From Ohtaekwangia sp. (GTDB taxonomy: Bacteria; Bacteroidota; Bacteroidia; Cytophagales; Cyclobacteriaceae): a DNA stretch of 64,000 nt. This document shows, piece by piece, positions 5,016-9,368 of the stretch; position 1 is the stretch's first letter; every line of letters begins with the position of its first letter. The notes below the pieces were generated by a model. The model saw nothing but the letters and a program-made list of their open reading frames with translations. It was not told where the DNA came from and did not search any database. The stretch spans positions 50,875 through 114,874 of the forward strand of contig DASPIZ010000135.1 in NCBI GenBank assembly GCA_035628875.1, given 5' to 3'. Position numbers and translations under genes: made by a program.

Positions 5016-6311
5016 ATGGCACAGGTACAACTTATAATGCCGAAGATGGGCGAAAGCATCATGGAGGCCACCATCCTTAATTGGTTGAAAAAGTCCGGTG
5101 ATAAAATCGAACAGGACGAATCTGTATTGGAAGTAGCCACGGATAAAGTAGATACAGAAGTTCCTTCTACGCATGCCGGTGTACTGAAAGAAATATTAGC
5201 AAAAAAAGGTGATGTTGTACCTGTGGGTAAACCCATCGCCATCATCACAACCGACGTTGAAGAGGACAATGATTCAACTTCAACTTCACCCGCGCTGGCA
5301 ACGTCACATACAATGCCAATGGCGCAAGCTGCCACAGACGTCAAAAGCAACGGTACTTCGCATAGCGTTCCTGATTATCGCACGGTTTCACGGTTCTATT
5401 CTCCGCTGGTGAAAAATATTGCACGTGAAGAGAACATCCCCGTCAGCGAACTTGAAACAATAGAAGGCTCCGGTGCAGAAGGTCGTGTCACAAAAAAAGA
5501 TATACTTCATTACATCCGGCACCGTAAGACAGGTTTTGTGTCCAAGCCGGCCCAGCAAGCGATAACCACATCGCAACCAAAAGTTTACTCATCGGTAAAT
5601 GCCGGTGATGAAATCATTGAGATGGACCGTATGCGAAAAATGATTGCGGAACGTATGGTTGATTCAAAACGTATTGCGCCACACGTCACCTCTTTTGTAG
5701 AAGCCGATGTGACCAACGTGGTGATGTGGCGGAACAAAGTAAAAGGGGAATTTCAAAAACGCGATGGTGATGTACTCACGTTCACACCAATCTTTATGGA
5801 AGCTGTCGTGCTTGCTATTAAAGATTTCCCGATGATCAATGTGCAGGTAGATGGTGACCGCATCATCAAGAAGAAAGACATAAATATTGGGCTCGCAGTC
5901 GCTTTACCCAATGGAAATCTGATCGTACCGGTTATCAAAAATGCTGATCAATTTAGTATCGCCGGATTAACAAAAGCGGTTAACGATGTTGCACGCAGAG
6001 CCCGCGAGAATAAACTAAAGCCCGATGAGCTTACCGGTGGTACATTCACCATTTCAAACGTGGGATCATTTGGCAATGTAATGGGCACACCCATCATACT
6101 ACAGCCACAGGTTGGTATCATTGCCCTTGGTGCAATCCAGAAAAAACCCGCCGTAATGGAAATGCCCTATGGCGATGTGATTGCGATAAGGCACAAAATG
6201 TTCCTTTCCCATTCGTATGATCATCGTGTCGTAGATGGCGCCCTGGGCGGCAGCGTGGTACGCAGGGTAGCCGATTACCTGGAAAGATTTGATCTGAACA
6301 GAACGATATAA
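5016..6311 (+). CDS. Dihydrolipoamide acyltransferase (E2) of a 2-oxoacid (probably branched-chain) dehydrogenase
   Basis: Lipoyl motif ATDKVDTEVPS; E3-binding GSGAEGRVTKKD; catalytic SYDHRVVDG. Confidence 0.95.
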   Translation: MAQVQLIMPKMGESIMEATILNWLKKSGDKIEQDESVLEVATDKVDTEVPSTHAGVLKEILAKKGDVVPVGKPIAIITTDVEEDNDSTSTSPALATSHTMPMAQAATDVKSNGTSHSVPDYRTVSRFYSPLVKNIAREENIPVSELETIEGSGAEGRVTKKDILHYIRHRKTGFVSKPAQQAITTSQPKVYSSVNAGDEIIEMDRMRKMIAERMVDSKRIAPHVTSFVEADVTNVVMWRNKVKGEFQKRDGDVLTFTPIFMEAVVLAIKDFPMINVQVDGDRIIKKKDINIGLAVALPNGNLIVPVIKNADQFSIAGLTKAVNDVARRARENKLKPDELTGGTFTISNVGSFGNVMGTPIILQPQVGIIALGAIQKKPAVMEMPYGDVIAIRHKMFLSHSYDHRVVDGALGGSVVRRVADYLERFDLNRTI

Positions 6312-6333
6312 TCGCATTTTTAATGAAAAGAAC

Positions 6334-6360
6334 GCCAGGTCCTTACCTGGCTTTTTTATT
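6334..6360 (+). terminator. Intrinsic terminator after E2
   Basis: gccaggt-cctt-acctggc followed by a T run. Confidence 0.8.
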
Positions 6361-6424
6361 TTGTCAGGAAAGCCTTACTTTCCCTGATCAAAGCCCCTCC
6401 TGATGTATTAAATGCAATCCAAGC

Positions 6425-7048
6425 ATGGCTAAAATTATATCTTTTATCAGCCGTAAAGGCGGCACGGGAAAAACAACCAACGCCATTAATCTGGCAACGA
6501 CCTTGCATCATTTGGGTAAACGCGTGTTGCTTATAGAAACGGATGCCAACTACACTTTAAATACCTTACGTAAGATGGAGGTCTTCAAATCAAAGCATGC
6601 CAATAATGCCTTTGAAATACAAGGCTCCCAGGACAATCAAGTAGGCGAAGAACTTGTCACGCTGAAAGAGAATCGAAAACTAGATTTTATCCTGGTTGAC
6701 AGCGCCGGGAAAACCACGGATGAAGGAATAAAAAAACTTTGCCTTGTAAGCGATGTTGTTATTGTACCAACAAGTCTTACGCAAAATGACTTACTGGTAA
6801 CCTATCAAACAGTGACCGACCTCGGCCCTGCGCGTCAGTTAAATCCAAAACTTAAAATTGTTGTGCTGCCAAATCGAATCCACAGCGCCACCAACGCATA
6901 TACCGTGCGTGAGCATCTTAAAAACCTGGACGCATTAATTCTTCCGGTGATCGTTCCGCAGAAAAATCTTTTTGTAAATTTCAGTACCCTGGAGGCTGAA
7001 AAGGAATATATTCCCGTTGCCCAGGCTATTTTAAACTACTGCGCATGA
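6425..7048 (+). CDS. Short ParA/MinD-family ATPase
   Basis: Deviant Walker A RKGGTGKTT, Walker B ILVDSAG, SDVVIVP. Confidence 0.9.
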   Translation: MAKIISFISRKGGTGKTTNAINLATTLHHLGKRVLLIETDANYTLNTLRKMEVFKSKHANNAFEIQGSQDNQVGEELVTLKENRKLDFILVDSAGKTTDEGIKKLCLVSDVVIVPTSLTQNDLLVTYQTVTDLGPARQLNPKLKIVVLPNRIHSATNAYTVREHLKNLDALILPVIVPQKNLFVNFSTLEAEKEYIPVAQAILNYCA

Positions 7049-7404
7049 GTAAGAAGAAAAACACGCTAAAAGATCTTGATGAGTTTCTGAAACAACAAGC
7101 TGCTTCGCTCGTTACCCCAGAACCCGTGAACATGCCAGTACAAGAACCGGCAACAGTATCACCCGCAAAATCTGAAGGTGAGGAACCAACAGCAGATAAA
7201 ATTATTTCTCAACTCAGCGCTCTCGCTAAACAAAATCCTAATCACTTCCGCACAATCCTATACGACATCATTATCAAATCACTTGAACAACTTCCGCATT
7301 CGCTACCCGAAGACAAAATGCTGATCAATACATCTCTCTACTTAAAAAGTGGCGACCAATGGAAGGATGTGATACGGAAGTATTGGAAGGAATATGGTTC
7401 ATAG
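7045..7404 (+). CDS. Hypothetical protein, putative ParA partner
   Basis: ATGA overlap with parA; basic N-terminus MSKKKN, Pro-rich linker, helical C-terminus. Confidence 0.75.
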   Translation: MSKKKNTLKDLDEFLKQQAASLVTPEPVNMPVQEPATVSPAKSEGEEPTADKIISQLSALAKQNPNHFRTILYDIIIKSLEQLPHSLPEDKMLINTSLYLKSGDQWKDVIRKYWKEYGS

Positions 7405-7530
7405 TTCATGGTCCAAAGTTCAAAGTTGGAGTTCGATAACGAAGCGTTTGCGACATTGTTTTGAGGTTTGACGTTTGAGTTTGATTTGTTTTCGATAACG
7501 ATGAGATTTGGCATTGTTTGAGCTTGCTCA
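7396..7530 (+). repeat. Composite heptamer cassette, copy A (left modules)
   Basis: ggttcat/agttcat/ggtccaa/agttcaa/agttgga, then ttcgataacgaagcgttt and tttgagg/tttgacg units as in copies B and C. The first unit overlaps the last codons and stop of the upstream gene. Confidence 0.85.
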
Positions 7531-7941
7531 TGCTCAGAATTTAAACCTGCGGTCCAAACAAGGTTGAGATGACAAGCCTTACCAATTATAACCGTACAAC
7601 TGCTTGGCTGTCGTCAATACTTACCTTTGCTTCTTGTTATTATCGATATATCCTCGAAAATTCACACAAGACATACTCGAATTTACGAACGTATCAAATA
7701 ATGCTTCGCTGGCTGAATCAATGCTCCGAAGGAGCTAAATATGGATAGCCGCGAGCGAAGCTCGTGGCCAATATTCCGACATTAAGCATGTGCCACAGGT
7801 GCAAGTGGATCAGGAGAAAAACGCTCATGGCACACAACATGAAAATTGTGATCGAAAGAAAGCCAATCTTATTTTATCTCCTGATCTAATAAGTTATCCA
7901 AATCTACTTGGACCTTATATGTAAGAACCGAAGACACTTAA

Positions 7942-8210
7942 GCTCGAATCAACCAACCTCGCAGATCGTAACTCAAAGCGCGTAGCTAACTCAAAATCCA
8001 ATTATTAGGAAAAACGCCTTGCAGCTTAAAGCCTGCAGCCTGACGCTTATCAAAAACACATCAGTTAAGACCAACAAACTCGCGGCTCGCAGCTCAAAGC
8101 TCGCGGCTTTTTGAAAGCCCACCGCTTCGCACGCCATCAAACTTTAATTTCTCTCAACATTTTTACTTTCAACTTAAACCATGAACTTGGAACCTTCGTT
8201 GAACCTTCAA
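7942..8210. repeat. Heptamer cassette modules (right modules twice, plus an inverted ttcaagg-type module)
   Basis: caaactcgcggctcgcagctcaaagctcgcggct; cttgcagcttaaagcctgcagcctgacgctta; aaccatgaacttggaacc just before the 8220 start. Confidence 0.75.
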
Positions 8211-8219
8211 TTTAAAAAT

Positions 8220-9368
8220 ATGAAATTCGGAACTAAAGCAGTACATGCCGGGGTTGAACCGGATCCTTCTACCGGCGCTATTATGACGCCGGTCTATCAA
8301 ACATCAACATACGTGCAAGAGTCACCTGCCAAACACAAGGGTTATGCATATGCGCGAGGCGCAAATCCGACGAGGAATGCTTTGCAGAAAAGTATAGCGG
8401 CACTTGAAAACGGTAAGTTCGGTCTTTGCTTCTCATCCGGCATGGGTGCAACAGATGCGGTGATCAAATTATTAAATCCCGGTGATGAAGTGATCACCAG
8501 CTACGACCTGTATGGTGGTTCTTACCGCATGTTCAAACGTGTCTTCGAGAAATATGGTATTCGTTTTCACTTCATTGATCTCACGAACGCAAGCAATGTT
8601 CACCAGGTATTGAATGATAAGACAAAACTTTTTTGGCTTGAAACGCCGACTAATCCTTTAATGAATATCGTAGACATCAAAGCATTCGTTGATATCGCGA
8701 AAGGAAAAAATATTTTGGTGGCTGTTGATAATACTTTTGCATCGCCATATTTACAAAATCCACTTGACCTCGGCGCCGATATCGTGATGCATTCCGTAAC
8801 AAAATATCTCGGCGGACATTCGGACGTGGTGATGGGCGCATTAATAACCAACGATGAAAAATTACACCAGGAACTTGCGTTCATTCACAACTCGTGCGGT
8901 GCTGTACCGGGGCCGCAGGATTCATTCCTTGTGCTTCGTGGAATCAAGACCCTGCACCTTCGCATGGAACGTCATTGTGTTAATGGAAGAAAGATCGCCG
9001 AATACCTTAGAAATCATCCTAAGATTGGCAACGTATTCTGGCCAGGCTTTGCCGATCATCCCAATCATGACATTGCAAAGAAACAAATGCGTGATTTTGG
9101 TGGTATGTTATCTTTTACCTTAAAGGATGATAACATCGCCAAAGCCACCTTACTGATGGAAAGCGTAAGCCTGTTTTCACTTGCTGAATCATTGGGCGGT
9201 GTGGAGTCCCTCATCAACCATCCTGCATCTATGACACATGCCAGCATTCCGAAAGAAGAACGGCTAAAAAGTGGATTAGTCGATTCACTTATACGTCTAA
9301 GCATTGGCGTTGAAGATGCCGAAGACCTGATTGAAGATCTTGAACAAGCATTGAAGAAGATATCATAA
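8220..9368 (+). CDS. Cystathionine gamma-synthase/gamma-lyase (PLP-dependent)
   Basis: YARGANPTR, ETPTNP, DNTF, PLP-lysine motif HSVTKYLGGHSD. Start moved to ATG 8220 (MKFGTK); the 8181 ATG lies inside the repeat. Confidence 0.95.
   Translation: MKFGTKAVHAGVEPDPSTGAIMTPVYQTSTYVQESPAKHKGYAYARGANPTRNALQKSIAALENGKFGLCFSSGMGATDAVIKLLNPGDEVITSYDLYGGSYRMFKRVFEKYGIRFHFIDLTNASNVHQVLNDKTKLFWLETPTNPLMNIVDIKAFVDIAKGKNILVAVDNTFASPYLQNPLDLGADIVMHSVTKYLGGHSDVVMGALITNDEKLHQELAFIHNSCGAVPGPQDSFLVLRGIKTLHLRMERHCVNGRKIAEYLRNHPKIGNVFWPGFADHPNHDIAKKQMRDFGGMLSFTLKDDNIAKATLLMESVSLFSLAESLGGVESLINHPASMTHASIPKEERLKSGLVDSLIRLSIGVEDAEDLIEDLEQALKKIS

What the first reader, a model, noticed from the sequence alone, without database searches (positions are those of the whole stretch)
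6425..7404. Orphan ParA plus small coupled partner: candidate intracellular positioning system
Seen: a 207-aa ParA with signature Lys Walker A overlapping (ATGA) a 119-aa protein with basic tip MSKKKN, amphipathic helix, Pro-rich linker and helical domain. No ParB, plasmid rep or chemotaxis genes are in the window. Established: ParA/MinD ATPases with small partners bearing basic N-terminal peptides position cargo (McdAB for carboxysomes, ParF/ParG). Inference: this pair positions an unknown cargo. The upstream E2 of a large dehydrogenase complex is a speculative candidate, weakened by the terminator between them.
Basis: partly seen in the sequence, partly recalled or inferred. Interest (0 to 1): 0.6.

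Follow-up and report, generated by a model that had tools for sequence, protein, structure and literature searches.

The report
ParF-like ATPase with new docking-peptide partner
A soil Cytophagales bacterium has a conserved two-gene unit, a small ParA-type positioning ATPase and an undescribed 119-residue partner built like a cargo adaptor; what it positions is unknown.

Summary
Window 6425-7048 encodes a 207-aa ParA/MinD ATPase with an intact deviant Walker A. Its closest solved relative is plasmid TP228 ParF. It overlaps by ATGA a 119-aa ORF (7045-7404) that matches no Pfam, NCBIfam, PHROG, PADLOC or PDB family.

The pair is real and under selection:
- All 65 loci of the Chryseolinea/Ohtaekwangia clade where both genes were recognised keep the ATGA overlap.
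- Partner residues 1-25 are almost invariant while synonymous sites are saturated.
- The linker varies freely in length.
- The C-terminal domain folds confidently as three helices with no informative structural match.

ParA orthologues (about 60% identity) in Bernardetia and one other Cytophagales family are followed by partners that share only the N-terminal peptide. That is the hallmark of a ParA-docking and activating peptide joined to exchangeable cargo domains.

The cargo was not identified. Adjacency to the E2 gene is clade-specific synteny. BMC and encapsulin genes were not found, and chemotaxis genes are not shared by all carriers. No plasmid or phage copy was found.

One unexpected point: outside its own clade, the pair was found only in the two Cytophagales families that lack canonical ParB.

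Binding was not shown; the complex prediction gave no verdict. The scan has noted analogous orphan ParA pairs in other phyla, but not this family. Verdict: a new variant of a known kind.

The parts
6334..6357 (+). Terminator-like hairpin (GCCAGGTCCTTACCTGGC plus T-run) between the E2 acyltransferase gene (5016-6311) and the ParA gene. It is context, not part of the module.
   Evidence: A hairpin in the same position occurs in several relatives. In four loci (L112-L115) the tblastn matches to E2 and ParA lie only 4-5 nt apart.
6425..7048 (+). Gene for a 207-aa ParF-like ParA/MinD-family ATPase.
   Evidence: Pfam VirC1, AAA_31 and CbiA above their cut-offs. NCBIfam ParA_partition scores 96 bits, below its cut-off of 180. 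The closest solved sequence is TP228 ParF, E 4e-15. The AF2 model (pTM 0.84) best matches TP228 ParF/ParA structures 5u1g, 4e03 and 4e07, with TM 0.77-0.81 and rmsd 2.7-3.3.
6449..6478 (+). Deviant Walker A, SRKGGTGKTT. The signature Lys K11 is at codon 6455-6457 and the P-loop Lys K16 is also present.
   Evidence: The motif is invariant in 31 orthologues from three families.
7045..7048 (+). ATGA start/stop overlap (translational coupling).
   Evidence: The same -4 spacing is found in all 65 clade loci where both genes were recognised. Bernardetia and genus g83 instead have gaps of 63-148 nt.
7045..7404 (+). Gene for the 119-aa partner, an undescribed family.
   Evidence: No hit in Pfam, NCBIfam, PHROGs or PADLOC. 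It has 767 homologous clusters, named 'hypothetical protein' wherever a source name is listed, and 60 representative clusters among 1.84 billion proteins.
7045..7119 (+). N-terminal peptide, residues 1-25 (MSKKKNTLKDLDEFLKQQAASLVTP). It is the putative ParA-docking and ATPase-activating motif.
   Evidence: Nearly invariant in 64 loci although synonymous sites are saturated; for example L8 and L15 each use six codons. It is the only segment aligned by hhalign with the Bernardetia partners (probability 93.5%, E 2.4e-7). The ParA-docking function is inferred.
7120..7191 (+). Acidic, Pro-rich disordered linker, residues 26-49.
   Evidence: pLDDT about 58 with no secondary structure. Homologues carry insertions of up to about 60 residues here. 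Net charge is -4.
7192..7401 (+). C-terminal three-helix domain, residues 50-119, with the motif PEDKMLINTxLYLKSGDQWKDVIRxYW. It is the putative cargo-binding or self-association domain.
   Evidence: pLDDT 96-98. N95 is invariant, and T96, L98, Y99, W106 and W114 are nearly invariant in 68 diverse homologues. No informative structural match: best Foldseek E 0.5 and best VIA-align Z 5.1.

Best explanation
This is a self-contained, chromosomal two-gene positioning module of the ParA/MinD type.

The 207-aa ParF-like ATPase would form an ATP-sandwich dimer. It would then bind a cellular matrix, most likely the nucleoid, because no extra C-terminal membrane-targeting helix is present.

The 119-aa partner would act as the adaptor. 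Its basic N-terminal peptide (residues 1-25: a KKK tip followed by the helix TLKDLDEFLKQQA) would dock on the ParA dimer and stimulate ATP hydrolysis and release. A flexible linker would tether the peptide to a three-helix C-terminal domain that binds the cargo or self-associates on it.

Shown here:
- the anatomy of the two genes;
- intact catalytic motifs;
- a ParF-like fold;
- strict gene coupling;
- strong purifying selection on the peptide;
- retention of the peptide alone across families.

Inferred: docking, ATPase stimulation, the nature of the matrix, and the existence and identity of a cargo. The cargo is unidentified. It is not a BMC, an encapsulin or a chemotaxis array.
For: ParA family, motifs and fold.

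Coupling and conservation of the pair:
- 11 of 11 same-genus loci.
- 65 of 65 clade loci with the ATGA overlap.
- Partner found in 18 of 19 same-genus genomes and in two sister genera.

Modular partner:
- Residues 1-25 are nearly invariant at the protein level with saturated synonymous sites.
- The linker is variable in length.
- The C-terminal domain is confidently folded.

Across families: ParA orthologues of 57-61% identity in Bernardetia and in genera g45 and g83 were found. In Bernardetia and g83 they are followed by partners that begin MAK(K)N(S/T)LxDL(D/N)xFLKE and otherwise differ. hhalign aligns only the N-peptide with the Bernardetia type, and the N-peptide plus the first C-domain helix with the g83 type.

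Established knowledge: partners of ParA/MinD ATPases act through a positively charged N-terminal peptide, and the rest of the protein gives cargo specificity (PMC10241942; PMC11407121; PMC12462528 for ParB; TP228 ParF-ParG, PDB 5u1g).

The module is chromosomal and not mobile. Neither protein has a match in 72,556 plasmids, and the partner has none in 50,697 phage records. The Bernardetia copies lie on chromosomes of 4.9-5.9 Mb.

Weak hint of expression: contigs from two soil RNA libraries, 92-98% identical, cover parts of ParA. One of them bridges the ParA-partner junction at 7003-7187.
Against: - No direct evidence that the two proteins bind.
- No cargo could be named. Neighbours differ between lineages and the C-domain has no informative fold match.
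- K9, which aligns with the central Arg of this genome's own ParB motif, is not kept in the other families. The activating residue would therefore have to be among K3-K5.
- Nucleoid binding by this ParA was not tested.
Confidence: 0.62

Rival explanations
1. DNA cargo. The pair is a chromosomal, type Ib-like partition system in which the partner takes the place of ParG or ParB as a centromere- or nucleoid-binding protein. It would help segregate the chromosome or a chromosomal region. In lineages without ParAB it would be the only such system.
For: - The closest relatives by sequence and by fold are plasmid partition ATPases: TP228 ParF, and the NCBIfam ParA_partition model as best hit.
- In a sample of 300 Cytophagales genomes, canonical ParB was found in nearly every family. 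The exceptions are f2 (Bernardetiaceae; 2 of 17, weak hits only) and f19 (hits of about E 1e-13 only). The two f19 proteins examined are ParB_N-DNA methylase fusions.
- Outside the window's own clade, close ParA orthologues (E below 1e-60) occur in exactly these two families: f2 in 10 of 17 genomes and f19 in 4 of 20.
- The Bernardetia genome G082 (4 contigs, its ParA lying on a chromosome recorded as a complete genome) has no Soj and no ParB. The ParF-like protein is the only partition-type ParA on its chromosome.
- The g83 partner has a strongly basic Lys/Thr-rich linker, +11 net charge in 30 residues.
Against: - The window's own genome and genus g4 have canonical Soj and ParB as well.
- Most ParB-less genomes of f2 and f19 lack the pair.
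- No repeat array or conserved operator was seen next to the genes in three lineages.
- The C-domain model is all-helical, with no strand that an RHH fold would need.
- The linker of this clade is acidic.
- In Bernardetia the genes lie 28-54% of the chromosome away from dnaA.
- The family-level association rests on two or three lineages and was noticed post hoc.
Confidence: 0.15
2. The cargo is the 2-oxoacid dehydrogenase complex whose E2 core gene lies directly upstream.
For: E2 lies immediately upstream in 72 of 80 clade loci. In four loci (L112-L115) the E2 and ParA matches are only 4-5 nt apart, which leaves no room for a terminator.
Against: - The adjacency is confined to one vertically related clade.
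- In sister genera g2 and g4 the upstream genes are a type III PKS and a methyltransferase. In Bernardetia the upstream gene is an M50-like protein, and in g83 it is malate dehydrogenase.
- Four clade loci with full 4-kb flanks lack E2.
- A terminator-like hairpin separates the genes here.
Confidence: 0.05
3. The pair is not a positioning system. Two variants are possible. The partner's ParB-like peptide could modulate the resident Soj/ParAB. Alternatively, the ATPase-partner pair could act as a nucleotide-dependent switch that regulates another process, as FlhG and MipZ regulate rather than transport.
For: - The partner's first residues (MSKKKNTLKDLDEFL) resemble the N-terminus of this genome's own ParB (MSKKKALGRGLSALL).
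- Soj and ParB coexist with the pair in this clade.
Against: - The pair also exists in Bernardetia, where no Soj or ParB was found.
- An N-terminus M[SA]KK(K) is not rare: 42 of 39,566 ATG-started frames in this genome have it. The hydrophobic spacing also differs from the ParB motif.
- Strict coupling to its own ParA argues for a cognate pair.
Confidence: 0.1
4. The pair is a relic of an integrated plasmid or conjugative-element partition (or VirC1-like) module, with no present cellular role.
For: The best Pfam hit is VirC1 and the best structural matches are plasmid ParF.
Against: - Catalytic motifs are intact, and the peptide and C-domain are under strong purifying selection.
- The chromosomal position is stable across a family-level clade.
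- No mobile-element genes were seen among the neighbours examined.
- No copy was found in plasmid or phage collections.
- The VirC1 equivalog score is 55 bits against a cut-off of 313.
Confidence: 0.04

Closest known systems
ParF-ParG of plasmid TP228 (type Ib partition; PDB 4dzz, 4e03, 5u1g)
   Same: - A small (about 206 aa) ParA without an N-terminal DNA-binding extension.
- ParF is the best sequence match (E 4e-15) and the best fold match (TM 0.77-0.81).
- The downstream small partner has a flexible N-terminal tail that, in ParG, binds ParF and stimulates its ATPase.
   Different: - Chromosomal, with no plasmid homologue found.
- The partner is unrelated to ParG. Its C-terminus is a three-helix domain, not a ribbon-helix-helix.
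- No adjacent centromere or operator repeats were found.
- Only 25-27% identity to ParF.
McdA-McdB carboxysome positioning system
   Same: - A two-gene ParA plus adaptor unit.
- The adaptor has a basic N-terminus and a disordered region.
- There is a conserved tryptophan near the C-terminus. W114 is nearly invariant here, and the Bernardetia type ends in an invariant IWK(K/R)FW plus one final residue, usually D. In McdB an invariant C-terminal Trp binds the cargo (PMC11321042).
   Different: - No BMC shell gene was found in five carrier genomes.
- W114 lies inside a folded helix, not in a free tail.
- The g83-type partner has no C-terminal Trp.
- There is no sequence similarity to McdB.
Chromosomal ParABS (Soj-Spo0J)
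   Same: - The docking principle: a short N-terminal motif of aliphatic and basic residues on the partner binds the ParA dimer (PMC12462528).
- The partner's N-terminus resembles this genome's own ParB N-terminus.
   Different: - The partner has no ParB_N, HTH or CTPase domain.
- This ParA is about 55 residues shorter than the resident Soj and only distantly related to it. Soj sits on a very long branch in the ParA tree.
- Canonical Soj and ParB are encoded elsewhere, on contig C18.
PomXYZ, MipZ and other orphan ParA/MinD systems with ATPase-activating partners
   Same: The general logic: a ParA-like ATPase plus a lineage-specific partner that carries an N-terminal activating peptide (PMC10241942).
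   Different: No homology of the partner to PomX, PomY or MinE was detected. No link to division genes is visible in the neighbourhood.

Membership tests
ParA/MinD (deviant Walker A) ATPase family | Deviant Walker A KGGxGK[ST] with the signature lysine, plus Walker A' and Walker B aspartates | tested here: met
   SRKGGTGKTT with K11 and K16, and D40 and D92 in the ETD and VDSAG stretches. All are invariant in 31 orthologues.
ParA/MinD (deviant Walker A) ATPase family | ParA/MinD fold | tested here: met
   AF2 model with pTM 0.84. Top Foldseek matches are TP228 ParF/ParA, followed by MinD, Soj, MipZ and McdA, all with probability 1.00.
ParA/MinD (deviant Walker A) ATPase family | ATP-dependent dimerisation and matrix (DNA or membrane) binding | not testable with these tools
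   Needs biochemistry. The only indication is that no extra C-terminal helix beyond the ParF-length core is present.
Type Ib plasmid partition system (ParF/ParG-like) | Small ParA lacking an N-terminal HTH | tested here: met
   207 aa. The profile alignment to ParF begins at residue 3, so there is no N-terminal extension, and Foldseek aligns 214-218 columns to the 204-211-residue ParF chains.
Type Ib plasmid partition system (ParF/ParG-like) | Partner is a ribbon-helix-helix centromere-binding protein | tested here: not met
   The model of the C-domain is all-helical at pLDDT 96-98, with no strand. No relevant PDB sequence match: the only hit below E 0.001 is a designed repeat protein.
Type Ib plasmid partition system (ParF/ParG-like) | Centromere or operator repeats next to the operon | tested here: inconclusive
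   No repeat array in window 6250-8250 or at the Bernardetia and g83 loci. Upstream regions are not conserved. A distant site cannot be excluded.
Type Ib plasmid partition system (ParF/ParG-like) | Carried on a plasmid or other mobile replicon | tested here: not met
   Stable chromosomal locus. No match in the plasmid collection.
NCBIfam NF041546 ParA family partition ATPase (equivalog) | Score above the curated cut-off of 180 bits | tested here: not met
   96.4 bits.
VirC1 (T-DNA / conjugal transfer ATPase) | Equivalog-level score and a VirC2 / T4SS context | tested here: not met
   Pfam PF07015 scores 52.8 bits, above its domain cut-off. The NCBIfam VirC1 equivalog scores 55.5 bits against a cut-off of 313. 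No transfer genes among the neighbours examined.
McdAB carboxysome/BMC positioning | A BMC or carboxysome encoded in the genome | tested here: not met
   PF00936 found in 0 of 5 carrier genomes, with positive controls in E. coli and Synechococcus.
McdAB carboxysome/BMC positioning | Adaptor with a basic N-terminus and an invariant C-terminal aromatic residue | tested here: inconclusive
   The basic tip and W114 are conserved, but W114 lies in a folded helix and the g83-type partner lacks a C-terminal Trp.
ParA/MinD partner (adaptor / ATPase-activating) proteins, functional class | [quoted passage not shown] | tested here: met
ParA/MinD partner (adaptor / ATPase-activating) proteins, functional class | Direct binding to the cognate ATPase and stimulation of it | not testable with these tools
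   Needs ATPase and binding assays.

The most novel reading that the evidence does not exclude
In the Cytophagales families that have lost canonical ParAB (Bernardetiaceae and family f19), this ParF-like ATPase and its non-ParB partner would be the chromosome's own segregation or nucleoid-organising system. That would make it a chromosomal, ParB-independent, type Ib-like partition machine. In the Chryseolinea/Ohtaekwangia clade it coexists with ParABS and may have been re-purposed there.
Probability: 0.13. Interest if true: 0.75.

Novelty: new variant of a known kind. Interest (0 to 1): 0.45.

Why it matters
ParA/MinD ATPases are the main cargo-positioning machines of bacteria. For many "orphan" members, neither the partner nor the cargo is known.

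This work defines a clean, strongly conserved ATPase-partner pair in gliding soil and marine Cytophagales. It identifies the likely docking peptide. It also shows that the peptide is retained on different C-terminal domains in different families.

The C-terminal domain has no known fold relative, and the usual cargos are excluded or not shared. The cargo is therefore probably new for this family of systems. The alternative is the chromosome itself in lineages that lack ParB, which would be a notable exception to the ParABS rule.

Cultured carriers exist (Chryseolinea serpens, Ohtaekwangia koreensis and O. kribbensis, a Bernardetia strain), so the question can be tested directly.

Tried and rejected
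- Complex prediction: ParA dimer plus ATP plus partner residues 1-40. The result was no verdict (score 0.26, mark 0.32). It counts neither for nor against binding.
- Fold searches with the partner model: Foldseek against PDB gave a best E of 0.5. VIA-align wide gave a best Z of 5.1, to a de novo designed helical protein, with generic helical proteins below it. Nothing informative.
- PDB sequence search with the partner profile: only designed helical repeat proteins.
- ESM Atlas: only unnamed Bacteroidota clusters, and TPR-like helical look-alikes with TM below 0.5.
- PADLOC and PHROGs: nothing for the partner.
- Rfam scan of 6250-8250: no match.
- Repeat and inverted-repeat scans around the pair here and in Bernardetia and g83: no array that looks like a centromere or operator. 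The alignment of upstream regions shows no conserved motif beyond a hairpin in some species.
- Plasmid and phage collections: no homologue.
- Encapsulin (PF04454): found in 0 of 5 carriers.
- Gas-vesicle search (PF00741): 0 of 5, but the control rang nowhere, so it is uninformative.
- CheW: present in only 3 of 5 carriers, so chemotaxis arrays are not a shared cargo.
- Position relative to dnaA in Bernardetia: not origin-proximal.
- 'MSKKK' identity with the genome's own ParB: judged not significant on its own, because 42 other ATG-started frames begin the same way.
- RNA-library contigs: they come from relatives, are short, and could include DNA. They are treated only as a weak hint of co-transcription.
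- Rooting the ParA tree: the Soj outgroup is too distant, so no direction of transfer is claimed.
Full report
**Observation.**
The 207-aa ORF lies at 6425-7048 and the 119-aa ORF at 7045-7404. They overlap in ATGA.

The first protein carries the deviant Walker A SRKGGTGKTT, with the signature lysine K11 and the P-loop lysine K16. D40 and D92, in the ETD and VDSAG stretches that I read as Walker A' and Walker B, are invariant in the orthologue alignment. It hits Pfam VirC1, AAA_31 and CbiA above their cut-offs. Its best NCBIfam model is 'ParA family partition ATPase', at 96 bits against a cut-off of 180.

The second protein hits nothing in Pfam, NCBIfam, PHROGs or PADLOC.

A terminator-like hairpin with a T-run lies between the upstream E2 acyltransferase gene (5016-6311) and ParA. 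The genome's canonical Soj and ParB are on another contig (C18), and its CheW genes are on contig C113.

**Source.**
The whole stretch is held by one soil metagenome run. The nearest named relatives are Ohtaekwangia, Chryseolinea, Chryseosolibacter and Dawidia, with ParA 75-84% identical.

**The ATPase.**
By profile search the closest solved sequences are TP228 ParF (4dzz) and the TP228 ParA-ParB complex (5u1g), both at E about 4e-15.

An AlphaFold2 model built on 31 orthologues (pTM 0.84) superposes best on the same ParF structures: TM 0.77-0.81, rmsd 2.7-3.3 A, 25-27% identity. MinD, Soj, MipZ and McdA follow.

It is therefore a small, type Ib-like ParA of ParF length. It has no N-terminal extension and no additional C-terminal helix of the kind that MinD uses for membrane binding.

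**The partner.**
It has 767 protein clusters in the 5.8-billion-protein collection, named 'hypothetical protein' wherever a source name is listed. It has 60 representatives at 50% clustering among 1.84 billion proteins, nearly all short. The only two long hits match the low-complexity linker.

Alignments show three parts:
- Residues 1-25, MSKKKNTLKDLDEFLKQQAAxLVxP, are almost invariant.
- The linker is Pro/Ala/Glu-rich and carries insertions of up to about 60 residues.
- A C-terminal region of about 65 residues contains PEDKMLINTALYLKSGDQWKDVIRxYW. N95 is invariant, and T96, L98, Y99, W106 and W114 are nearly invariant.

With 68 sequences, AlphaFold2 gives:
- a low-confidence helix at 7-19;
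- no structure at 20-49;
- three helices (50-63, 68-81, 88-117) at pLDDT 96-98.

Neither Foldseek nor the Foldseek-independent search finds an informative relative. The best E is 0.5 and the best Z is 5.1.

**The pair is real and under selection.**
In 11 of 11 same-genus loci the order E2-ParA-partner-MetB is kept. In 65 loci of the wider Chryseolinea/Ohtaekwangia clade where both genes could be recognised, the spacing is always -4, the ATGA overlap.

Codon counts over 64 loci were made for partner residues 1-25. They show essentially one amino acid per position while synonymous codons are scrambled. L8 and L15 each use six codons, and A19 and P25 each use four. Selection therefore acts on the peptide, not on the nucleotide sequence.

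**Behaviour across families (the most informative result).**
A partner HMM finds nothing in 300 other Cytophagales genomes. ParA orthologues of 57-61% identity do occur in two other families: f2, genus g37 = Bernardetia, in 10 of 17 genomes, and f19, genera g45 and g83, in 4 of 20. None was found in a sample of 400 genomes from across the phylum.

Behind these ParA genes, after a gap of 63-148 nt, lie proteins of 143-217 aa. They start MAK(K)N(S/T)LxDL(D/N)xFLKE and are otherwise different.

Profile-profile comparison gives two results:
- Only the first 24 residues align with the Bernardetia type (probability 93.5%, E 2.4e-7).
- The N-peptide plus the first helix of the C-domain align with the g83 type (probability 97%).

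Sister genera g2 and g4, and a Roseivirgaceae MAG, hold intermediate forms.

The pattern is a peptide that travels with the ATPase while the remainder is exchanged. This is what is known for partners of ParA/MinD ATPases. A positively charged N-terminal stretch contacts the ATPase, and the rest specifies the cargo (PMC10241942, PMC11407121). [quoted passage not shown] In TP228, the ParG tail does this for ParF (PDB 5u1g).

I therefore read residues 1-25 as the docking and activating peptide. This step is inferred, not shown.

**The cargo.**
Neighbours give no answer.

E2 is upstream in 72 of 80 clade loci. In four of them (L112-L115) the E2 and ParA matches lie only 4-5 nt apart. Four loci with full flanks lack E2, however. 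Outside this clade the neighbours are a type III PKS, a methyltransferase and a PALP enzyme (g4). They are an aspartyl protease-PDZ protein (g2), an M50-like protein (Bernardetia), and malate dehydrogenase and a CMD-family protein (g83). The E2 link is best explained by inherited synteny.

Known protein cargos are unlikely:
- BMC shell genes: 0 of 5 carriers.
- Encapsulin: 0 of 5 carriers.
- CheW: only 3 of 5 carriers.

The module is not plasmid- or phage-borne.

One resemblance deserves mention. McdB adaptors use an invariant C-terminal tryptophan to bind carboxysomes (PMC11321042). Here W114 is nearly invariant, and the Bernardetia partners end in an invariant IWK(K/R)FW motif. But W114 sits in a folded helix, and the g83 type has no such residue.

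**An unexpected association.**
Canonical ParB (E about 1e-32 to 1e-40) was found in nearly every Cytophagales family sampled, with two exceptions. One is f2 (2 of 17, both weak). The other is f19, where matches are only about E 1e-13; the two such proteins examined are ParB_N-DNA methylase fusions.

These are exactly the two families that, besides the window's own clade, hold close ParA orthologues.

In the Bernardetia genome G082, no Soj and no ParB were found. The ParF-like protein is the only partition-type ParA on its chromosome. This raises the possibility of a DNA cargo, that is, a ParB-independent chromosomal partition system.

Several points count against this reading:
- Most ParB-less genomes of f2 and f19 lack the pair.
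- The window's genome has both systems.
- No centromere-like repeats adjoin the genes.
- The C-domain is not an RHH.
- The genes are not near dnaA in Bernardetia.
- The association rests on two or three lineages and was noticed after the fact.

I give it about 0.13-0.15.

**Expression.**
Contigs from two soil metatranscriptome libraries, 92-98% identical to the window, cover parts of ParA. One contig bridges the ParA-partner junction at 7003-7187. They come from relatives, and DNA carry-over cannot be excluded, so this is only a weak hint.

**Comparison and novelty.**
[quoted passage not shown] It fails the equivalog thresholds for ParA_partition and VirC1.

The system fails defining features of type Ib plasmid partition: the partner is not an RHH, the locus is not plasmid-borne, and no adjacent repeats were seen. 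It fails a defining feature of McdAB: there is no BMC.

It works like these systems in architecture, but its partner family and C-terminal fold are undescribed. I found no paper on it.

The scan's notebook lists analogous orphan ParA-partner pairs in other phyla but nothing like this sequence.

I rate it a new variant of a known kind, of moderate interest.

Noticed in passing
window 7405-8180: A 775-bp gap lies between the partner stop and the metB start. In most relatives the matches to these two genes lie only about 30-390 nt apart, though a few loci have gaps of 0.7-2.6 kb. The gap holds short elements (about 7394-7461, 7716-7768, 8010-8116) that match many other contigs of the source soil metagenome at high summed depth. 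Some contigs join 7429 to 8076, skipping 646 nt. It looks like a small insertion flanked by dispersed repeats. No Rfam match.
   Followed up: partly
Cytophagales genomes, families f2 (Bernardetiaceae) and f19; e.g. G082, G061, G203: These two families appear to lack canonical chromosomal ParB. In Bernardetia, Soj was also not found. The two f19 'ParB_N' proteins examined (611-615 aa) are ParB_N-DNA methylase fusions.
   Followed up: partly
L037 3228-3467 and L054 4621-4875: In two MAG loci the partner ORF is truncated (79 and 84 aa), with an unrelated tail after the conserved N-peptide. This is probably a frameshift or an assembly error.
   Followed up: no
L010, L011, L012, L039, L050, L068 (region upstream of ParA): In Ohtaekwangia and Dawidia-type loci a conserved hairpin (ACCCGG...CCGGGTTT) ends only about 15 nt before the ParA ATG. 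This leaves little room for a separate promoter, so ParA may be read through from E2 or may be made from a very short leader.
   Followed up: no
L123 6278-8093 and L124 6226-8087: In sister genera g4 and g2 the pair sits directly behind two genes of similar size and layout. In g4 (L123) these are a type III polyketide synthase and a SAM methyltransferase; the g2 genes were not scanned.
   Followed up: no
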